From contig CAIPBY010000036.1 in NCBI GenBank assembly GCA_903863425.1, positions 1 to 41,650 on the forward strand: 41,650 nucleotides of DNA, in the 5' to 3' direction. Position 1 is the stretch's first letter; every line of letters starts with the position of its first letter. This DNA is from Candidatus Buchananbacteria bacterium (lineage in GTDB: Bacteria; Patescibacteriota; Patescibacteriia; 2-01-FULL-39-33). Position numbers and translations under genes: made by a program. Below, piece after piece: positions 183 to 36,873 of this stretch. Below the pieces are notes generated by a model that made no database searches, was not told the origin of the DNA, and was given only the letters and a program-made list of their open reading frames with translations.

Positions 183-1352
183 ATGCGAGTTCTTTACATT
201 GTTGCTGTTGTTTTGTTGTTGTCGGTTAGCGCGTTTGCTGGGAACACGGTTCGTGGTCCTGGTGGACAAGCAAGTAGTCTTCCAGAGGGTGGCGGGGGTG
301 CGATTCTTTCCCTTGATGTCTGGAAAAACATCCAAGAGGGGGAGGATAGTAATTTTCGTGCAGGGTTTGAGGCGGTGTTGGGCACTGCCAAAATAACTGA
401 CGTCCTTGGAAGGTCAATGACGTCGAAAAAACTTCTTCACGTATTGCCATATCTGGATTATGTGAAGAAGTTGGACGACGACTTCGCGTTCTTCGTTAAT
501 CTCTACGCCAAAGACGCCCAAGGGTTCGCCTTCGAGAAAAACTTCGAGCAGTGGGGCTTCGATACGGAAGCACTCATCGCTCGGATAAATGTAGGCGTGG
601 GGTTGTCGTGGAAAGTGGACGACGTCTGGACGTTGGCTCTCGAGGCAGATATTGGTGTCGAGCAATTGAAGTTGGACTACGCTTTCGACATCAACAGGTT
701 CTATTTGCCGATTCTTGCCAAGAGCAGGGCGTATGGAATCGGTATTGGTGCGACCGGAGCAGTAATATGTCAGGCAACTGAGAGGTTGCGACTTGGGCTG
801 CAAGTTTCGAGTCTAATGAACATTTACTGCAAGGGTCGCACTAAGCTGTTGCGAGGAAAGGTTAGTGACACCTGGACAGCCGAGATGCCTTTCCCGATGA
901 GTGTTACCGCAGCGGGATCATATCAGCTAACCGATCGACTCGGAGTTTGTGCCGACGTGAGTTGGTACGACTTCAAGGATGACCCTTTGATACTGAAGTT
1001 CAACCATTGGGGTTTCTCAAAACCTCTGGAGTTAGGCTTCGGCGGTGTCGTTGCAGTGAGGGGCGGGTTTAACTATCAGGCGACTGATTGGTTGAAGTTC
1101 CGCGTTGGCGGTGGTTGGATGACACAGGGGGTGGATCAGAAGTATGCTGATTCCACCACTACGGATTTTCCGGGGTGGTATGGTGCTCTCGGCTTCACTG
1201 CTCAAGTTACGGGGTCAATTGACATCAGTGTGGCTTACACCCACGCTGAGGGTCATAGTCAAGAACAGTCAATCCTGCCAGGAATTTTGCCAGGGAGCAA
1301 GATTGAAGGCGGGATTGAAACTTTGATGATAGAGGGTTGCTGGAAGTTTTAA
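183..1352 (+). CDS. secreted beta-barrel outer-membrane-type protein, tentatively FadL/TodX/OmpP1-like
   Basis: 389-aa ORF with AAGGGAG (167-173) 9 nt upstream of the ATG. Signal peptide MRVLYIVAVVLLLSVSAFA. Alternating hydrophobic beta-strand pattern (IDISVAYTHA, LKFRVGGGW, VVAVRGGFNYQA), rich in Gly and aromatics. Ends in ...GCWKF, a C-terminal Phe as in OMP beta-signals. GC visibly above the backbone. Family assigned by eye only. Confidence 0.75.
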   Translation: MRVLYIVAVVLLLSVSAFAGNTVRGPGGQASSLPEGGGGAILSLDVWKNIQEGEDSNFRAGFEAVLGTAKITDVLGRSMTSKKLLHVLPYLDYVKKLDDDFAFFVNLYAKDAQGFAFEKNFEQWGFDTEALIARINVGVGLSWKVDDVWTLALEADIGVEQLKLDYAFDINRFYLPILAKSRAYGIGIGATGAVICQATERLRLGLQVSSLMNIYCKGRTKLLRGKVSDTWTAEMPFPMSVTAAGSYQLTDRLGVCADVSWYDFKDDPLILKFNHWGFSKPLELGFGGVVAVRGGFNYQATDWLKFRVGGGWMTQGVDQKYADSTTTDFPGWYGALGFTAQVTGSIDISVAYTHAEGHSQEQSILPGILPGSKIEGGIETLMIEGCWKF

Positions 1353-11251: not shown

Positions 11252-11296
11252 AATTGATAGTAGTTGTCTCATTTTTGAAAATATAGTTAACAATTT

Positions 11297-11339
11297 GGTC
11301 TCATCGTCTAACGGTTAGGACGCCAGGTTTTTCACCCGG
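11297..11339 (+). pseudogene. truncated tRNA-Glu-like fragment (acceptor 5' strand, D arm, anticodon arm only)
   Basis: GGTCTCATCGTCTAACGGTTAGGACGCCAGGTTTTTCACCCGG aligns with positions 1-43 of the intact tRNA-Glu at 11650. The D arm is identical. The anticodon loop has a 1-nt insertion and the stem has an A-C mismatch. No T arm and no 3' acceptor strand (TGAGACC) follow. Confidence 0.55.
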
Positions 11340-11391: not shown

Positions 11392-11646
11392 ATGTGGTTC
11401 GTATATTTATTAAAAAGCAAGAAAGATGGAACATATTATATAGGTTATACGGAAAATTTAAAGCAAAGATTAATAGATCATAATCAAGGCAAGACAAAAT
11501 CAATTAAGCATAAAGTTCCTCTAATGTTGGTTTATTTTGAGGGGTATGGTAATAAAACCGTTGCTAGGACTAGAGAAATTGAATTAAAAAATAATAGTTA
11601 TAAGAAAAAAGAGATAATTGATAGGATTAAAAATATAGAGCAGTAA
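11392..11646 (+). CDS. small GIY-YIG nuclease-family protein (UPF0213/YhbQ-like)
   Basis: 84 aa. N-terminal WFVYLLKSKKDGTYYIGYTENLKQRLIDHNQG is the GIY-YIG core. Conserved Arg and Glu follow downstream (VARTREIELK). The stop lies 3 nt before tRNA-Glu. Confidence 0.75.
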   Translation: MWFVYLLKSKKDGTYYIGYTENLKQRLIDHNQGKTKSIKHKVPLMLVYFEGYGNKTVARTREIELKNNSYKKKEIIDRIKNIEQ

Positions 11647-11649
11647 TTT

Positions 11650-11721
11650 GGCCCTATCGTCTAACGGTTAGGACACCAGGTTTTCATCCTGGTAATCGGG
11701 GTCCAACTCCCCGTGGGGCTA
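11650..11721 (+). tRNA. tRNA-Glu (anticodon UUC)
   Basis: 72 nt: acceptor GGCCCTA/TGGGGCT (two G-U pairs), D arm GTCT-AACGGTTA-GGAC, anticodon arm CCAGG-TTTTCAT-CCTGG (TTC at 34-36), T arm CGGGG-TCCAACT-CCCCG. CCA is not encoded. Confidence 0.85.
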
Positions 11722-11776: not shown

Positions 11777-11811
11777 AATTAAAACGAGCCCTTGATATTA
11801 TCTCTGGGCTC
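11777..11811 (-). terminator. intrinsic terminator of the Cys-cluster gene (minus strand)
   Basis: GAGCCC (11786-11791) / GGGCTC (11806-11811) stem overlapping the stop codon. On the minus strand it is followed by GTTTTAATTT. Confidence 0.5.
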
Positions 11812-12298
11812 AAATGTCGATGGCCGGATAGGTTTTGATTTCCGTGCCTTCCCGTAGGTATACTTGGCTTGCCTCATCACTTAACTGTACCCATCTAGGC
11901 ACAAATAGGATCATCTTGCCCGAAAGGTACATATAAGCAACGAACACCCTGGAACGGAGTAGTATATCTGTTTCTCTCTTAACCCAGGCACTTGTCAAAG
12001 CGCCTTCCCTCGCTTCCCATATTTGGAGTCGAGGAGTAGCTGACCCTGTCCTGTGCCAATCAAGGATTAAACCACTCTTAGTTGGCTTAAACGACTCATC
12101 GCCGAATCCTTCCCTCCATTCGCAGTTGTATGTCCGACATACTATGTTATGGTTTGGATATAGCGTGCATCTGTGGTTGATGTTATCACAGTGTTCACAC
12201 CAGACACCAGCTGGTTTGATTAACTTTTTGCCAGCACGACTCATCTCCCAGATGTGGTGTGTCAAACAGCACAAAGTGCAATCTCCGCATTCTCTCAT
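11810..12298 (-). CDS. YkgJ-type CxxCxxCC cysteine-cluster (zinc/iron-chelating) protein
   Basis: 162 aa. N-terminal CGDCTLCC motif plus further Cys/His clusters (CEHC, C..YNC). GGAGGA lies 8 nt upstream of the ATG. GC is intermediate to high relative to the backbone. Confidence 0.65.
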   Translation of the reverse strand: MRECGDCTLCCLTHHIWEMSRAGKKLIKPAGVWCEHCDNINHRCTLYPNHNIVCRTYNCEWREGFGDESFKPTKSGLILDWHRTGSATPRLQIWEAREGALTSAWVKRETDILLRSRVFVAYMYLSGKMILFVPRWVQLSDEASQVYLREGTEIKTYPAIDI

Positions 12299-13097: not shown

Positions 13098-13116
13098 TTT
13101 TTTTGTAATAAAATAT

Positions 13117-13158
13117 GGCCCTGGAGCAAAGCACGCGTGTTGCGCTTTATTCCGGGCC
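13117..13158 (-). terminator. imperfect long hairpin between convergent genes, probable terminator of the 13186-14097 gene
   Basis: GGCCCTGGAGCAAAGC / GCGCTTTATTCCGGGCC arms with a few mismatches. Read on the minus strand it is followed by ATATTTTATT. Confidence 0.45.
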
Positions 13159-13185
13159 AAAACTCCGGATTGGGTTTCGCCGTTG

Positions 13186-14097
13186 CTATCGGTGAGCAAG
13201 ACCTCCTTCATCTGTGATTTGCAACAAGACAGTACCAGGCTGGACGAGACTTATCCATATCTCATCCTCGTCCCCAATTTCATGGTTCATGTACAGGTCG
13301 TCTCTGAGCCAATGGATGACGCAAAAGGCATGCTTAGCACTGTGTTCTCCCTTTAGGATTTTGTCGCACCAGTCCTGCACGCTGTTGCTATTTGCTTCTT
13401 CCAGCCATGATTCCCATTCCTCCCGAGGTATGAGCTTATAGAGCTTCCGAGGGATGAAGTGGCAGTGATTGTCGTCATAGTTTTCAACTGCTGTTCTGAT
13501 GTCGCTCAGGACTTCCAAGTCCTTCCTGATTTTTCCTGCCCGGATGTCTTCGATTATGTCTCTGGCGGCTTCTGTCATCCAGGAAAACCACTTTTCCTTA
13601 GTGAGGAATCCGTTTTCCTCGCTAAAGATCTGTCCGAGTCCCGCCTTTGAGACCAGGATTTGCGCTTCCCGCAAAGTGCGTAGAGTTCGAGCCTTTCTGT
13701 TTGAACATAGCTTGTCTATGACAGGCATAACTGTCTGTCTCCGCTCGACTCGTCTGGCCTCTATCAAGGCGTGCAGGTCATCACACTCTTGTTGAGTCTG
13801 CTCGAATTTCGATATTCGAGCGACTTTTTCTGCATCACTTAGAGGTTTGTCGTCAGTCTCTGTTGCTTTGTCCGTCGATGCCTCTGGGGCGGTTACGGTC
13901 CTAGGCTCGGCCTTGTCCGAATAGGAGCTACCATAGCAGGAACACGATGGTGGCTTGGGTATTGGGGCAGGTAGTGGCGCACTCAACTGCCGAACTTCTG
14001 CTCTCACTTCTTGTTTGTCATGCTGAATCATACCCAACATGAAAGCCAGAATTCCAATAACAATAGCGCTGATGGTTAAGGTACAATTTGTCTTCAT
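13186..14097 (-). CDS. hypothetical membrane-anchored protein (TM anchor, Pro-rich linker, helical C-terminal region)
   Basis: Start reassigned to ATG 14097 (MKTNCTLTISAIVIGILAFMLGM), with GAGGAG exactly 7 nt upstream. The tracked start 14118 is a GTG. No family recognised. GC-rich. Confidence 0.7.
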   Translation of the reverse strand: MKTNCTLTISAIVIGILAFMLGMIQHDKQEVRAEVRQLSAPLPAPIPKPPSCSCYGSSYSDKAEPRTVTAPEASTDKATETDDKPLSDAEKVARISKFEQTQQECDDLHALIEARRVERRQTVMPVIDKLCSNRKARTLRTLREAQILVSKAGLGQIFSEENGFLTKEKWFSWMTEAARDIIEDIRAGKIRKDLEVLSDIRTAVENYDDNHCHFIPRKLYKLIPREEWESWLEEANSNSVQDWCDKILKGEHSAKHAFCVIHWLRDDLYMNHEIGDEDEIWISLVQPGTVLLQITDEGGLAHR

Positions 14098-14157
14098 GTT
14101 GCGTCTCCTCTTCTTCACTAGTTGATGGTCATTTTTCTGATTACGAATTACCCCTGT

Positions 14158-14186
14158 AGTATATTAGATATTTTGTAATTTTTCAA
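14158..14186 (-). promoter_or_regulatory. sigma70-type promoter TTGAAA-17-TATACT (minus strand) for the 13186-14097 gene
   Basis: On the minus strand: TTGAAA (14186-14181), 17-nt spacer, TATACT (14163-14158). Confidence 0.45.
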
Positions 14187-14229
14187 ATAAAAATCCGCCA
14201 ATCCATTGCTCATAACAATGAATTGGCGG
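14187..14229 (-). terminator. intrinsic terminator after the zinc-ribbon gene (minus strand)
   Basis: 14-bp stem, arms 14195-14208 and 14216-14229 (CCGCCAATCCATTG / CAATGAATTGGCGG, one mismatch). Followed on the minus strand by ATTTTTATTT. Confidence 0.65.
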
Positions 14230-14252
14230 TTGGCGCGATACGTAGGAGAAGC

Positions 14253-14456
14253 TTAATCGTAGTAGTCCTCTCCGTAATGTTCTTCACATCTGGATTCGAC
14301 TTCCTTAGCAAAGTGGTGGGTAACTTTCTCGTAACACCCATTTTCTTCGCCGACCCACTCCTCTCCGGTGACTATGAGTGGTTCGCCACAGTGAGGACAA
14401 TCCTTGGCTCGGGGGGAAACCGATCCTTCGCAATTCGGACACGCGTAGTTACTCAT
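14253..14456 (-). CDS. small zinc-ribbon protein with acidic C-terminus
   Basis: Start reassigned to ATG 14456 (MSNYACPNCEGS...), with AAGGAG 7 nt upstream. CPNC...CPHC zinc-ribbon pair. 67 aa. Confidence 0.65.
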   Translation of the reverse strand: MSNYACPNCEGSVSPRAKDCPHCGEPLIVTGEEWVGEENGCYEKVTHHFAKEVESRCEEHYGEDYYD

Positions 14457-14483
14457 GGATGTTCTCCTTTTGTGATCTCGCAT

Positions 14484-15032
14484 CTATTCACAGACATAGG
14501 CCACCAGGGTATTGGGTTGTTTCATCATGTCCTCAGGACAATCGAATCGTAGTTCCCATTTGGGGTCGTCCTGATAGCCGTTACCCCCTTTATGAAAATG
14601 GATAACCGCTATATGCCTGCTGCCATTGTACTCAAACATCGTGCCCAAGAAACAAAGATCAAATTCTTGCAGTTCTGTGGGAACTCCCTGTAGCATGAGC
14701 TTCTCGGCGTGGTGTAGGTTTGCTATTTTTCCCATTTCATCGGCTAGTAGGACGAGGATTTTGCCGACATCTTCTTCTTCGAATCCTATGCCGTCATATA
14801 CCAAATAGTGCCTGCCTTTCCACATCCGAGGGAATATCGGAGTCTCCTCTCGTTTCACTTTCTGGTCATCAAGAACGACCTTTTCGAATCGAAGCGTCTG
14901 TCCGTTTACTGGCGTTGACTCGTCGTGCACCAGAAGCTTCCAGCCCTCTTTCCTCTTGTCGTTTTGGAATATTGGCTGTTGGCCTAGAACTATCACCAAT
15001 GGCTTGGTTTCAACTGCTTGCTGAGTATCCAT
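14484..15032 (-). CDS. hypothetical protein (182 aa), no recognisable family
   Basis: Start reassigned to ATG 15032 (MDTQQAVE...), with GAGGAG 7 nt upstream. It is followed 27 nt later by the zinc-ribbon gene, so the two are probably an operon. GC-rich. Confidence 0.65.
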   Translation of the reverse strand: MDTQQAVETKPLVIVLGQQPIFQNDKRKEGWKLLVHDESTPVNGQTLRFEKVVLDDQKVKREETPIFPRMWKGRHYLVYDGIGFEEEDVGKILVLLADEMGKIANLHHAEKLMLQGVPTELQEFDLCFLGTMFEYNGSRHIAVIHFHKGGNGYQDDPKWELRFDCPEDMMKQPNTLVAYVCE

Positions 15033-15178
15033 GATATTTCTCCTCGATAACTCCAACTCACTCGTTGGAATCGTTGTAAAGGACGATAGTAAGTTCTCCT
15101 CTTGCTTACGGAAGTAATATACCATCCTCACAAATATTGTCTGGAAAAATGTAGCAATTATTTTAATTAATCAAAAAC

Positions 15179-15206
15179 TTGACTAATTTTGCAAAAGATA
15201 TATAAT
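15179..15206 (+). promoter_or_regulatory. sigma70-type promoter TTGACT-16-TATAAT abutting the trmB-like start codon (leaderless-type)
   Basis: TTGACT at 15179-15184 and TATAAT at 15201-15206. ATG 15211 lies only 4 nt after the -10 box. Confidence 0.55.
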
Positions 15207-15210
15207 ATAA

Positions 15211-15975
15211 ATGTTGTCGAAAAATATGTACGATTCTGTTCTCAAACAAGCCGGGTTAGAAGAAAAACAGGCCAAAGTGTATTTGGCTTGCTTGGAATTG
15301 GGGTCTGCCAAAGCGCCAGAAATCGCAAAAACAGCCGAAATCAAGCGTACTACCGCCTATGGAATTCTGGATGAGTTGGCTGGTTTGGGCCTGGTTAATT
15401 ATTCAGAGAAAAACAAGCAGAGACTGTATCGGGCCAATAGCCCGGAAGTTTTGGCGGATATTATGGATAGAAACCGATCGGCTCTGGCCAAGTCTTTGCC
15501 CGGTCTGGAAGATCTTTTTGCCACTCATCATTTGCGCCCCAAGATACAATTTTTTGAAGGAGTGTCTGGGGTCAAACAAATTTATGAAGATGTTTTGAAA
15601 TGCCGGACCAAGAAAATACGCCAGATTGTAAATGAAAGAGCCAATACGGATTTGGTTGGGGAGGAATTCATACTTAATTACATTCGTCGCCGGGTGGCTA
15701 GTGGCATTACCACTTATGACTTGCATCCTAAGTCGGGAGGCATTCAGACTGAGATGAGAGGCCGGGAAGATCCTAAGCTCAAGCGGTATGTGCGCTATCT
15801 GCCGCCTGATGCTTTCTATGCGGCTATGATTATGATTTATGATAATAAAGTGGCCATGGCTTCAAGCAAGAAAGAAAACTTTGGATTCATTATTGAGAGC
15901 AAAGAATTTACCAATACTCTCGCAACTTATTTTGATTTCATGTGGAAGCTGGGATCTCATGAACCGGAGAGGTAA
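15211..15975 (+). CDS. TrmB-family transcriptional regulator
   Basis: N-terminal winged-HTH LEEKQAKVYLACLELGSAKAPEIAKTAEIKRTTAYGILDELAGLGLV, typical of TrmB, plus a C-terminal effector-like domain. Confidence 0.75.
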   Translation: MLSKNMYDSVLKQAGLEEKQAKVYLACLELGSAKAPEIAKTAEIKRTTAYGILDELAGLGLVNYSEKNKQRLYRANSPEVLADIMDRNRSALAKSLPGLEDLFATHHLRPKIQFFEGVSGVKQIYEDVLKCRTKKIRQIVNERANTDLVGEEFILNYIRRRVASGITTYDLHPKSGGIQTEMRGREDPKLKRYVRYLPPDAFYAAMIMIYDNKVAMASSKKENFGFIIESKEFTNTLATYFDFMWKLGSHEPER

Positions 15976-17894: not shown

Positions 17895-19193
17895 TTATTT
17901 TGTATTGATTAATTCTTCGCAGGCTGAATATATGTTTTCAAATAATTGCGGAATATTGTCTTTGCTTGTCGATGAATAGGCGACCCGCAACAGATTGCCG
18001 ACGGTAATTATGCCGGTATCATATTTTGATAATAATAGCTGTCTGATTTTTTCAGCATCTAATCCCTTTTTTAATCCCACGCACAAGAAATAGCCGGAAT
18101 TATATGGCAAAGGATAAAAATATTTTTGGAATTTTTTATTTACCAAGACTTCTTTCACTTTTTCATATCTAGATTTCAAAAGGTCATATTTTTCTCCCTT
18201 TTCTTGGGTGTAAGTTTCTGAGCTGTAGGCCTTTAGCAGAAGGAGTTGGGATAAATTAGATGAACACGATATGTCTCCTCTGATGGCGCCAGCAGTTTTG
18301 GCTTCAAGCGCGCTATATAATTCTTTATTTCCATTTTTAATGCCATAAGTGATGAATCCAATCCTAAATCCCCAGACATAATCTTCCTTGGTAGGCCCGT
18401 CTACCTTAACGGCCAAGACATTTTCGTGCAAGTCGCAGAGCCAGGTGAAGATGGATTGCTTCTCAATTTCATCTTCATAGACTAGTCCGAAATAGGCATC
18501 GTCTACTATTACCAATATTTTGTTGCCTAGGTCGGCAGATTTTTTTATAATTTTTACAATTTCTTGCATTTCAGTTGTACTTGGTGTGTATCCGGCTGGA
18601 TTATTGGGAAAATTAAGTAATAATATTTTTTTGCCTGCACCTTTGGACAATTTTGATTTGAGTGAGGCAATATCAAATTTATTGTTTTTGAATAATTTGA
18701 AAAATACTGACTTGGCGCCATAGCCGTTGCCAAAAATTAATTCATAATTTTCCCAGAAAAGATCGGGAATAATAATTTTGTCATTACTATCTGCAAACAT
18801 ATAGGCCACCATGTTCAGACCATGTGTAAGTGCGCTAGTAACTATGGGCAAGCTGATTTCTTTGCCTTGAAGATCAGGATTTTTATCATAAATCATTTGT
18901 CGCCATTTTTCTCTAATATCCGGCCTGCCGTGGCTTGGAGCGTAATTAAAAGCTCCCGAAGAAATATTTATTTGATTTTCCAGGGATTTGAGACGCATAG
19001 CCGTGCCATCGTCTTCGAGCGCGATTCCAATAGTGGCGTTTATTTTTTTATCTTTGGCATCCGCGCTTTGAGCCGGGACGCCTTTTTTGGGAAAATAAAT
19101 AGCCGAGCCCTTTTTTGATAGAAGATGATAGACGGTTGGCGACTCGGACTTGATAATGTTGTTTAATTGTTCGGCTTCTGTATTTAACGGCAT
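17895..19193 (-). CDS. class I/II PLP-dependent aminotransferase
   Basis: NFPNNPAGYTP substrate/PLP motif, DDAYFGLVYE, a Lys-containing PTKE segment, and a 432-aa fold-type I layout. Confidence 0.75.
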   Translation of the reverse strand: MPLNTEAEQLNNIIKSESPTVYHLLSKKGSAIYFPKKGVPAQSADAKDKKINATIGIALEDDGTAMRLKSLENQINISSGAFNYAPSHGRPDIREKWRQMIYDKNPDLQGKEISLPIVTSALTHGLNMVAYMFADSNDKIIIPDLFWENYELIFGNGYGAKSVFFKLFKNNKFDIASLKSKLSKGAGKKILLLNFPNNPAGYTPSTTEMQEIVKIIKKSADLGNKILVIVDDAYFGLVYEDEIEKQSIFTWLCDLHENVLAVKVDGPTKEDYVWGFRIGFITYGIKNGNKELYSALEAKTAGAIRGDISCSSNLSQLLLLKAYSSETYTQEKGEKYDLLKSRYEKVKEVLVNKKFQKYFYPLPYNSGYFLCVGLKKGLDAEKIRQLLLSKYDTGIITVGNLLRVAYSSTSKDNIPQLFENIYSACEELINTK

Positions 19194-36429: not shown

Positions 36430-36873
36430 ATGCGTTGGATTTCGATGTTGGTAGTGGTATGTGCTGTAGTCGCGATGGCCTCGATGGCAGGCTTGACCGG
36501 CGTGGTTCAGGATGGTTCGGTCGCAGCGCTCGCGGTCGGTCAAACTTCGGCTCCCGCCGTTGTTGGGTTCGAAGGGACGATGCCGACGTGTGCCGCCGCG
36601 AATGTCGCTGGCTCGGTTTTTGCCTCTGCGACGCCGGCCCAAGAACGGGTTGGTTACGAAATGGCCAAAGTGCAAGAGATGCAGGCCAGCAAAGCAGCGA
36701 ATGACAGCGAAGTGGCGTTTGCGGCGAAGACAAGTGCTGAAAAGATCGACATGGCGATGACGGACGAACACGCGCGCGCCAGCGGTGTTTCGGTGGCCTT
36801 CATCAATGATCCCTGCGTCTCCAAGCCGATTGCCGATGTCAAGCCGATTACTGCCGAAGTCGCGTACCTCTAA
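36430..36873 (+). CDS. small secreted Ala-rich protein, function unknown
   Basis: 147 aa with AAGGAGG (36415-36421) 8 nt upstream of the ATG. Signal peptide MRWISMLVVVCAVVAMASMA. It is the only one of several overlapping GC-rich ORFs with both an SD and a signal peptide. Confidence 0.65.
   Translation: MRWISMLVVVCAVVAMASMAGLTGVVQDGSVAALAVGQTSAPAVVGFEGTMPTCAAANVAGSVFASATPAQERVGYEMAKVQEMQASKAANDSEVAFAAKTSAEKIDMAMTDEHARASGVSVAFINDPCVSKPIADVKPITAEVAYL

What the first reader, a model, noticed from the sequence alone, without database searches (positions are those of the whole stretch)
13098..15190. GC-rich three-gene island of unknown function: 182-aa protein plus zinc-ribbon operon, and a separately transcribed membrane-anchored protein
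All three genes are on the minus strand with an identical SD geometry (GAGGAG or AAGGAG, N7, ATG). The 182-aa gene and the 67-aa CPNC/CPHC zinc-ribbon gene are 27 nt apart and end in a strong 14-bp terminator (14187-14229). The 303-aa gene (TM anchor, Pro-rich linker, helical C-terminal region) has its own TTGAAA-17-TATACT promoter and terminator. I recognise no family for any of the three. The island lies about 1.4 kb downstream of a tRNA-Glu locus that shows signs of rearrangement, and it is bracketed by AT-rich backbone genes. A small unknown protein paired with a zinc ribbon beside a membrane protein is a layout often seen in accessory or conflict-type modules, but that reading is only an analogy.
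Basis: partly seen in the sequence, partly recalled or inferred. Interest (0 to 1): 0.65.

Follow-up and report, generated by a model that had tools for sequence, protein, structure and literature searches.

The report
Orphan retroelement-target gene plus two ORFans
The three genes are real, but the 182-aa one is not family-less: it is a diverged, apparently retired copy of the small proteins that tiny Patescibacteria normally hypermutate with a diversity-generating retroelement, while its zinc-ribbon and membrane-protein neighbours have no relatives anywhere and are never found with that family elsewhere.

Summary
There are three minus-strand genes (182, 67 and 303 aa) with identical SD-N7-ATG geometry. 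The first two are 27 nt apart. Strong terminators follow genes 2 and 3, gene 3 has its own promoter, and G+C is raised. The claim of no recognisable family fails for the 182-aa protein (A). Exhaustive HMMER plus a profile search placed it in a Patescibacteria-only family of about 130-200-aa proteins; a model built without A scores it E=1e-9. In 12 of 51 family loci the last ~125 nt of the gene is repeated downstream. 192 of 205 mismatches fall at adenines of that copy, and Avd and reverse-transcriptase genes follow. This is the signature of a diversity-generating retroelement (DGR) variable protein. The window copy lacks every DGR feature. There is no template repeat, RT or Avd in 41.6 kb and no post-stop hairpin. 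Its scaffold tryptophans are decayed, and the consensus sequence is identical in every contig examined from other samples. High G+C is a family-wide trait of these target genes (+13 points on average) and is not shared by the adjacent RT and Avd genes, so for A it does not indicate an island. The zinc-ribbon and membrane proteins are ORFans and never co-occur with the family elsewhere. Verdict: an orphan member of a known kind beside two lineage-specific genes. Interest is modest.

The parts
14484..15032 (-). Gene A, 182 aa: diverged orphan member of the Patescibacteria DGR variable-protein family
14487..14660 (-). Part of A (residues ~125-182) equivalent to the variable region (VR) of canonical family members
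   Evidence: Alignments; VR/TR maps of canonical loci. In A the scaffold residues W/W/W/W are F/F/C/M, one W is kept, an 8-aa insertion (NGYQDDPK) is present, and the terminal RLVRPRK is replaced by TLVAYVCE. No TR-like copy exists anywhere in the window.
14784..14867 (-). Lineage-specific ~28-aa insertion in A (residues ~56-83), absent from all other family members
   Evidence: Alignments. pLDDT is below 50 for residues 67-84.
15040..15045 (-). SD GAGGAG of A, 7 nt before the ATG
   Evidence: Read.
14253..14456 (-). Gene B, 67 aa: CPNC-x10-CPHC zinc ribbon with an acidic C-terminal tail (pI 4.6). ORFan, probably co-transcribed with A.
   Evidence: Pfam Zn_ribbon_3 E=1.1e-5, 25.1 bits, below the cut-off of 27. 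pI. No relatives in 130 loci. 27-nt gap to A with no structure between them (z=-0.5).
14464..14469 (-). SD AAGGAG of B, 7 nt before the ATG
   Evidence: Read.
14185..14229 (-). Intrinsic terminator of the A-B transcription unit (16-bp stem, 3-nt loop, U-run)
   Evidence: dG -23.9 kcal/mol, z=-3.8. Assemblies of other samples break or carry an N-gap here.
14158..14186 (-). Sigma-70-like promoter TTGAAA-17-TATACT of gene C
   Evidence: 10 of 12 matches. A consensus match only.
13186..14097 (-). Gene C, 303 aa: N-terminal TM anchor, Pro-rich linker, Cys- and Trp-containing helical region with a repeated [KE]EW.SW..EA motif. ORFan.
   Evidence: Only itself is found among 5.8 billion proteins by the word-index search. 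No Pfam, NCBIfam, PADLOC or PHROG hit. No PDB sequence hit better than E=0.3. No phage, viral or metagenome relatives.
14026..14082 (-). TM segment of C (residues 6-24)
   Evidence: Kyte-Doolittle 19-residue window mean 2.38.
14105..14110 (-). SD GAGGAG of C, 7 nt before the ATG
   Evidence: Read.
13105..13158 (-). Terminator hairpin plus U-rich tail after C, in the convergent gap to the M24 peptidase gene
   Evidence: z=-2.5.

Best explanation
Gene A encodes a diverged, orphan member of a Patescibacteria-restricted family of small, apparently cytoplasmic proteins. In canonical loci these proteins are the variable (target) proteins of diversity-generating retroelements. There, a template repeat (TR) is transcribed and reverse-transcribed with errors at adenines, and the cDNA replaces the last ~125 nt of the gene, rewriting about 10-14 Asn-coded positions of a ligand-binding surface.

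The window's copy has lost, or never had, everything needed for that process: a TR, an RT, an Avd and the structured element after the stop codon. Its variable-region scaffold has decayed, and it is invariant at consensus level across samples. It most likely works today as a fixed-sequence binding protein. It is co-transcribed with a small acidic zinc-ribbon protein (B) from an unidentified promoter and terminated at 14229-14195.

Gene C is a separately transcribed, N-terminally membrane-anchored protein whose stalk and helical domain are probably outside the cell. B and C are lineage-specific ORFans. Nothing links the three genes functionally beyond adjacency, shared strand and similar composition.

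Shown: family membership of A; the DGR nature of the family; absence of DGR parts in the window; the gene signals.

Inferred: ligand binding by A; loss of diversification; co-transcription of A and B; topology of C.
For: Family:
- 3 hits among 1.84 billion representative proteins.
- 30 members, none with a Pfam domain.
- 41 further loci, all in Patescibacteria-type MAGs.
- a model built without A scores A at E=1.1e-9 over its full length.

DGR nature of the family:
- Searches show a VR/TR pair in 12 of 51 distinct loci.
- 192 of 205 mismatches lie at TR adenines, and TR codes Asn at the variable positions.
- bAvd and RVT_1 genes follow the TR.
- A's closest subgroup includes two canonical targets, P0007 in L097 and P0008 in L141.

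Orphan status in the window:
- No TR-like copy, including in a scan that tolerates adenine positions.
- No RT or Avd by tblastn with 4 RT and 4 Avd queries, and no second family member (Pfam).
- No structure after the stop codon, against a conserved nested hairpin after many family genes.
- 100% nucleotide identity of the gene in 7 ENA contigs and in Logan contigs of 4 lake runs.
- Decayed scaffold residues and two insertions.

Literature:
- CPR DGRs form their own clade, and their targets typically have no TM or known domain (PMC8144416).
- CPR VR classes are unassigned (PMC5758913).
- Homologues of a DGR variable protein outside DGRs are known (PMC5006420).
Against: - Only 41.6 kb of the genome is visible, so a DGR acting from a remote site cannot be excluded.
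- The population data are consensus contigs at 3-13x depth and would miss minority variants.
- About three quarters of family loci also lack a nearby TR, so being an orphan is common in this family and need not mean being retired.
- B and C share A's raised G+C and SD geometry. This could reflect joint acquisition and joint function.
Confidence: 0.65

Rival explanations
1. A is still an active DGR target, diversified in trans by a DGR cassette located outside the 41.6-kb window.
For: - Most family loci (39 of 51) have no TR within the flanks held. Many of those orphans keep the conserved post-stop hairpin, so remote targeting probably exists in this family.
- Remote targets are acknowledged in the literature (PMC8144416).
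Against: - A lacks the post-stop hairpin. B's SD starts 15 nt after A's stop codon.
- The VR-equivalent region has an 8-aa insertion and has lost most scaffold Trp residues and the RLVRPRK end.
- The consensus sequence is identical in all contigs from at least 10 samples or runs.
Confidence: 0.1
2. The three genes form one horizontally acquired accessory or conflict module: for example a sensor or binder (A), a zinc-ribbon partner (B) and a membrane effector (C).
For: - They share strand, SD geometry and raised G+C and GC3.
- All three are ORFans or near-ORFans.
- The left junction is polymorphic among co-occurring strains at window 15224.
- DGR-diversified putative conflict systems have been described in other bacteria (PMC10907252, abstract).
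Against: - No PADLOC model matches.
- No co-occurrence of A-family genes with B or C homologues in about 50 family loci, or in the 80 M24-peptidase loci of relatives.
- Family members are usually solitary genes among housekeeping genes.
- No integrase, flanking repeats or direct tRNA adjacency.
- G+C of A is explained by the family trait.
- C has its own promoter and terminator.
Confidence: 0.15
3. B and/or C are not real genes, and the ORFs are chance open frames in a GC-richer stretch.
For: - No homologues, so no conservation evidence.
- No RNA runs are available.
Against: - A 303-codon ORF.
- Canonical SD-N7-ATG on all three genes.
- A matching promoter and two significant terminators placed exactly at the gene ends.
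- A TM anchor and a clean CxxC-x10-CxxC motif.
- Codon-position G+C pattern GC1>GC3>GC2, typical of coding sequence.
Confidence: 0.05

Closest known systems
Variable (target) proteins of Patescibacteria/CPR diversity-generating retroelements (DGR clade 2 of Roux et al. 2021, PMC8144416; CPR set with unassigned 'UVR' VR classes of Wu et al. 2018, PMC5758913)
   Same: - Full-length sequence homology of A to the family.
- Small size, with no signal peptide, TM segment or known domain.
- Raised G+C.
- Same predicted secondary-structure order: two helices, then a C-terminal antiparallel sheet that carries the VR in canonical members.
   Different: - No TR, RT or Avd within 41.6 kb.
- No post-stop hairpin.
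- Decayed VR scaffold and two insertions.
- No variation between samples.
- Followed by a co-transcribed zinc-ribbon gene, which no other family member has.
AvpA-like and other C-type-lectin-fold DGR variable proteins (Mtd, TvpA, TaqVP, AvpA; PMC5006420)
   Same: - Role as a DGR-diversified C-terminal binding surface in canonical family members.
- AAY-coded variable positions in the TR.
- Homologues outside DGR cassettes exist (PMC5006420).
   Different: - No sequence match to any PDB chain.
- Whether the fold is a CLec variant is therefore open.
Stand-alone small zinc-ribbon proteins (Pfam Zn_ribbon_3/DZR type)
   Same: B has CPNC-x10-CPHC and matches Zn_ribbon_3 over its 26 positions.
   Different: The score is below the Pfam cut-off. 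The 40-aa acidic tail has no relatives. No functional inference is possible.

Membership tests
Patescibacteria DGR variable-protein family (sequence family) | Significant full-length similarity to a family profile built without the candidate | tested here: met
Functional DGR target | A template repeat matching the 3' end of the gene, with mismatches confined to TR adenines | tested here: not met
   no copy in 41,650 nt on either strand, including a scan that ignores mismatches where the other copy has A. Positive controls: 12 family loci, 192 of 205 mismatches at TR adenines.
Functional DGR target | DGR reverse transcriptase and Avd accessory gene in the neighbourhood | tested here: not met
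   tblastn with 4 RT and 4 Avd proteins from canonical cassettes gave nothing below E=0.6. Pfam of window ORFs shows no RVT_1 or bAvd. Only the window is visible, so a remote cassette is not excluded.
Functional DGR target | Structured inverted repeat immediately downstream of the VR/stop codon | tested here: not met
   Family genes carry a conserved nested hairpin in which 10 of 11 pairs show compensatory changes. After A's stop codon the fold is not better than shuffles (z=-0.53), and B's SD follows.
Functional DGR target | Hypervariability of the VR within and between populations | tested here: inconclusive
   Zero differences in 7 ENA contigs and in contigs of 4 lake-water runs. These are consensus contigs at 3-13x depth. 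No raw reads were available.
C-type-lectin-fold DGR variable proteins | CLec fold (beta1, two helices, four-stranded sheet, beta5) carrying the VR | tested here: inconclusive
Known anti-phage defence or toxin-antitoxin systems | Match of any component to a defence-system profile | tested here: not met
   PADLOC: no hit for A or C. B gave only E=0.03-0.05 zinc-ribbon noise.
Known anti-phage defence or toxin-antitoxin systems | Conserved co-occurrence of the component genes across genomes | tested here: not met
   No B or C homologue in about 50 family loci or 80 M24-peptidase loci. C finds only itself in 5.8 billion proteins.
Horizontally acquired genomic island | Composition deviating from the backbone | tested here: met
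   G+C is 0.47-0.50 against 0.397, and GC3 is 0.52-0.53. For A this is ambiguous: family genes average +13 G+C points over their loci, while adjacent RT and Avd genes are host-like.
Horizontally acquired genomic island | Integration signatures (integrase, flanking direct repeats, direct tRNA adjacency) | tested here: not met
   No flanking repeats. No integrase among the neighbours. The tRNA-Glu is 1.4 kb away with two genes in between.
Horizontally acquired genomic island | Presence/absence polymorphism among close relatives | not testable with these tools
   The closest genome in the species-representative collection shares only 57% identity in the flanking M24 peptidase. All other contigs carrying the island are 100% identical. 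Only a left-junction variant at 15224 was seen.
Zinc-ribbon proteins (Pfam Zn_ribbon_3) | Two CxxC knuckles and a profile match above the gathering score | tested here: inconclusive
   CPNC and CPHC are present. The score of 25.1 bits is below the cut-off of 27.

The most novel reading that the evidence does not exclude
A is a domesticated ex-DGR variable protein, locked onto one ligand. It has been recruited into a new lineage-specific unit with a zinc-ribbon partner (B) and a surface-anchored protein (C), for example for host attachment or self/non-self recognition in an episymbiotic Patescibacterium.

More broadly, the family-wide, gene-confined G+C excess of these DGR targets (+13 points, including the non-templated N-terminal part, while RT and Avd stay AT-rich) may reflect an undescribed compositional constraint or process acting on DGR target genes.
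Probability: 0.12. Interest if true: 0.6.

Novelty: new member of a known kind. Interest (0 to 1): 0.33.

Why it matters
For genome annotation, the work turns a 'hypothetical' gene into a recognisable class. It yields a usable profile for a Patescibacteria DGR-target family that no Pfam, NCBIfam or PHROG model covers.

It also shows that raised G+C in such a gene should not be read as a foreign island. These target genes are GC-rich everywhere, whereas their own retroelement genes are not.

Orphan copies like this one are natural 'frozen' variants of a hypervariable binding scaffold. They could help identify what CPR DGR targets bind, which the literature states is still open (PMC8144416).

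The island itself, as a three-gene unit, has no support as a system.

Tried and rejected
- Profile libraries: Pfam, NCBIfam, PADLOC and PHROGs scans of A, B and C gave nothing except generic zinc-ribbon noise for B.
- Word-index homology search with A and with C returned only the proteins themselves.
- Single-sequence AF2 of A gave pLDDT 38 and was unusable.
- A profile of the family against PDB sequences, and C against PDB, gave nothing significant. A 38-residue local match of C to AcrIIC5 (E=0.31) was rejected as chance level.
- Synteny through the M24 peptidase: the nearest genome is only 57% identical, so the island junctions could not be compared with relatives.
- B/C were searched for in all 130 fetched loci by tblastn, tblastx and blastn. 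The result was negative.
- I tested whether B might be a conserved ORF in the ~290-nt target-TR spacer of canonical cassettes. No such ORF exists there.
- Phage records, IMG/VR and JGI metagenome contigs gave no relatives of C. The A-family is not found in viral contigs.
- RNA runs: none are listed, so operon structure is inferred from sequence only.
- The search for related loci with the 30-sequence alignment failed because the alignment was too divergent. It was redone with 10 closer members.
- Paul et al. 2017 (the primary CPR DGR paper) is not held in the library.
Full report
**1. Observation**

The window region 13098-15190 holds three minus-strand ORFs:
- A: 15032..14484, 182 aa.
- B: 14456..14253, 67 aa, with CPNC-x10-CPHC.
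- C: 14097..13186, 303 aa.

Each ATG is preceded by GAGGAG or AAGGAG and exactly 7 nt, read. A and B are 27 nt apart.

A 16-bp hairpin plus U-run follows B at 14229-14195. Its dG is -23.9 kcal/mol and z is -3.8. TTGAAA-17-TATACT lies at 14186-14158. This is a consensus match only, because promoter-like sites are not enriched over shuffles. A second hairpin plus U-rich tail follows C at about 13158-13117 (z -2.5).

C has a clear N-terminal TM segment and a Pro-rich linker.

G+C is 0.47, 0.50 and 0.49 for A, B and C, against 0.397 for the window. GC3 is 0.52-0.53. The description is therefore confirmed.

**2. Source organism**

The flanking genes are an M24 peptidase, a TrmB-like regulator, GTP-PEPCK, VanW and HSP20, among others. 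Their nearest relatives are Patescibacteria/CPR MAGs and, by the labels on the records, some DPANN MAGs, at no more than 57% identity.

The same DNA occurs 100% identical in about 21 contigs from several ENA metagenome assemblies. It also occurs in lake-water metagenome runs.

**3. Gene A has a family**

The standard libraries gave nothing, and the word-index search found only A itself.

The exhaustive phmmer search of 1.84 billion representatives found three distant relatives of 142-148 aa at 33-36% identity. A profile of these four sequences retrieved 30 proteins of 129-204 aa, all unnamed and without Pfam domains.

An HMM built from the family without A scores A at 54.1 bits. That is E=1.1e-9 for a 1.8-billion-sequence search space, aligned over almost the whole model. 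Membership is robust.

A carries a private ~28-aa insertion (residues ~56-83) and an 8-aa insertion in the C-terminal part.

**4. The family is a DGR variable-protein family**

In locus L097 the last ~135 nt of the family gene is repeated 490 nt downstream. In 16 of 17 substitutions the downstream copy has A, and a bAvd gene follows.

A scan of the species-representative genomes gave 41 more loci, all in Patescibacteria-type MAGs. Ten of them show the same repeat. L141 does as well, with bAvd and RVT_1 genes and a second target on the other strand.

Over ten of these loci, 192 of 205 VR/TR mismatches lie at TR adenines. The TR reads W.D.NGN.NVPYLNWNG.RWYLNFNWLDNDWNSNDRLVRPR, with Asn codons at the positions that vary.

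The cassette order is: target, then ~290 nt, then TR, then Avd on the minus strand, then RT.

This is the defining signature of diversity-generating retroelements. It agrees with the literature on three points:
- CPR DGRs form their own clade whose targets usually lack a TM or any known domain (PMC8144416).
- Their VR classes are unassigned (PMC5758913).
- Homologues of DGR variable proteins outside cassettes occur (PMC5006420).

Twelve of 51 distinct family loci have a TR within the DNA held. The others sit as single genes among housekeeping genes. Some occur as tandem paralogues.

**5. The window copy is an orphan and looks retired**

- No TR-like copy of A's 3' region exists in 41,650 nt. 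This includes a scan that tolerates any mismatch where the other copy has A.
- No RT or Avd is present, by tblastn with eight cassette proteins or by Pfam, and there is no second family member.
- Many family genes, both canonical and orphan, are followed directly after the stop codon by a conserved nested hairpin with CTTGG-type internal bulges. Ten of its 11 pairs show compensatory changes.
- After A's stop codon there is no structure (z -0.53), and B's ribosome-binding site starts 15 nt later.
- In the VR-equivalent region, four of five scaffold tryptophans are replaced and the C-terminal RLVRPRK is gone.
- The gene is identical in every contig from every sample examined. These are low-depth consensus contigs, so minority variants cannot be excluded.

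**6. Structure**

With the 30-sequence alignment, AF2 gives a confident model (pLDDT 76.7, pTM 0.73). It has two helices followed by a four-stranded C-terminal sheet.

**7. G+C re-interpreted**

Family genes average G+C 0.560, against 0.426 for their loci. In 40 of 44 cases the excess is more than 5 points. The non-templated N-terminal part is also about 11 points higher, and GC3 is 0.69. The Avd genes (0.32-0.38) and RT genes (0.27-0.37) of the same cassettes are host-like.

A's raised G+C is therefore a trait of this gene family and not evidence of recent import.

B and C are equally GC-rich and have no family, so horizontal origin remains possible for them. The window also holds other GC-rich genes: 183-2515, 11810-12298 and 36430-36873.

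**8. B and C**

B matches only generic zinc-ribbon profiles below the cut-off.

C finds only itself in 5.8 billion proteins. It has no match in phage records, IMG/VR or JGI metagenome contigs. Neither B nor C has any relative in the 130 fetched loci.

No PADLOC model matches. A 38-residue match of C to AcrIIC5 has E=0.31 and is not evidence. No ORF comparable to B lies in the target-TR spacer of canonical cassettes.

The three genes thus never co-occur elsewhere.

**9. Mechanism, best estimate**

A is a frozen descendant of a DGR-diversified binding protein. It acts as a fixed-specificity, probably cytoplasmic binder and is expressed in one transcript with the acidic zinc-ribbon protein B. C is an independently expressed, membrane-anchored protein, probably surface-exposed.

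Overall confidence in this account is 0.65, and for family membership alone about 0.9.

Rivals:
- A is a live remote target (0.10).
- The three genes are a joint accessory or conflict module (0.15).
- The ORFs are spurious (0.05).

**10. Verdict**

This is a new, diverged member of a known kind (CPR DGR variable proteins) beside two lineage-specific ORFans. It is not a new system, and interest is modest.

The family-level by-products may deserve separate follow-up. They are the gene-confined G+C excess of the targets and the conserved post-stop nested hairpin.

Noticed in passing
Loci L088-L141 (e.g. L105 9845-12226; L127 9836-10300): Genes of the DGR-target family are on average 13 G+C points richer than their host loci (up to +30; GC3 0.69). 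The excess includes the N-terminal part that is not templated by the TR. The Avd and RT genes of the same cassettes have host-like low G+C. I know of no explanation.
   Followed up: partly
Immediately after the stop codon of family genes, e.g. L129 10352-10415, L115 6565-6625, L105 10391-10440: A conserved nested hairpin (6-bp plus 5-bp helices separated by CTTGG-type bulges). Ten of its 11 pairs show compensatory changes. It is present in canonical and in many orphan loci. It is probably the DGR target-recognition inverted repeat, which suggests that many 'orphans' are remote targets.
   Followed up: partly
window 11292-11331 and 11645-11684: A 40-nt copy (90% identical) of the 5' half of tRNA-Glu lies 353 nt upstream of the intact tRNA. 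A very AT-rich (G+C 0.26) GIY-YIG nuclease gene (11392-11646) sits between them. This looks like an insertion of a GIY-YIG element into or next to the tRNA gene.
   Followed up: no
window 15224/15225 (L006 1-76; run X4 loose end): In two independent data sets the sequence diverges from the window exactly 14 nt into the TrmB-like ORF. It continues into a different gene (MLSKKGQIGIVTAQDGKPISGG...). This is a strain-level structural variant at the island's left junction.
   Followed up: partly
window 19296 (L002 1-151): A second strain-level breakpoint, in the intergenic region between the aminotransferase (17895-19193) and the 19337-20338 gene. The contig from another sample continues into unrelated sequence.
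   Followed up: no
window 183-1352 and 1601-2515: Two further GC-rich genes (G+C 0.50 and 0.56). One is a FadL/TodX-like outer-membrane beta-barrel protein with a signal peptide, and the other is a methyltransferase. An outer-membrane transporter is unexpected in a presumed Patescibacterium. It may be foreign DNA, or the taxonomic assignment may need checking.
   Followed up: no
window 36430-36873: The most GC-rich ORF of the window (G+C 0.59). It encodes 147 aa, is Ala-rich, has an N-terminal signal-like segment and has no Pfam hit.
   Followed up: no
window 14195-14285: Assemblies of other samples end at 14285 (L002, L004) or carry an N-gap exactly over the terminator hairpin (L005). The 16-bp hairpin seems to break short-read assembly.
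   Followed up: no
window 13315-13428 (C residues 224-261): A local 38-residue similarity (about 37% identity) of C to the anti-CRISPR AcrIIC5 (8jb9), at E=0.31 against PDB sequences. It is not significant and is recorded only as a lead.
   Followed up: no
L092 6926-8434; L117; L125 9249-10389; L132; L141 397-801 and 2855-3259: Several genomes carry two family genes side by side, or flanking the cassette. Their 3' regions are 80-89% identical and their mismatches are not adenine-specific, as expected for two VRs diversified from one TR.
   Followed up: partly
L141 1685-2759: The DGR reverse transcriptase is called as two overlapping ORFs (228 and 133 aa, both RVT_1). This is a frameshift or an assembly error in an otherwise canonical cassette.
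   Followed up: no
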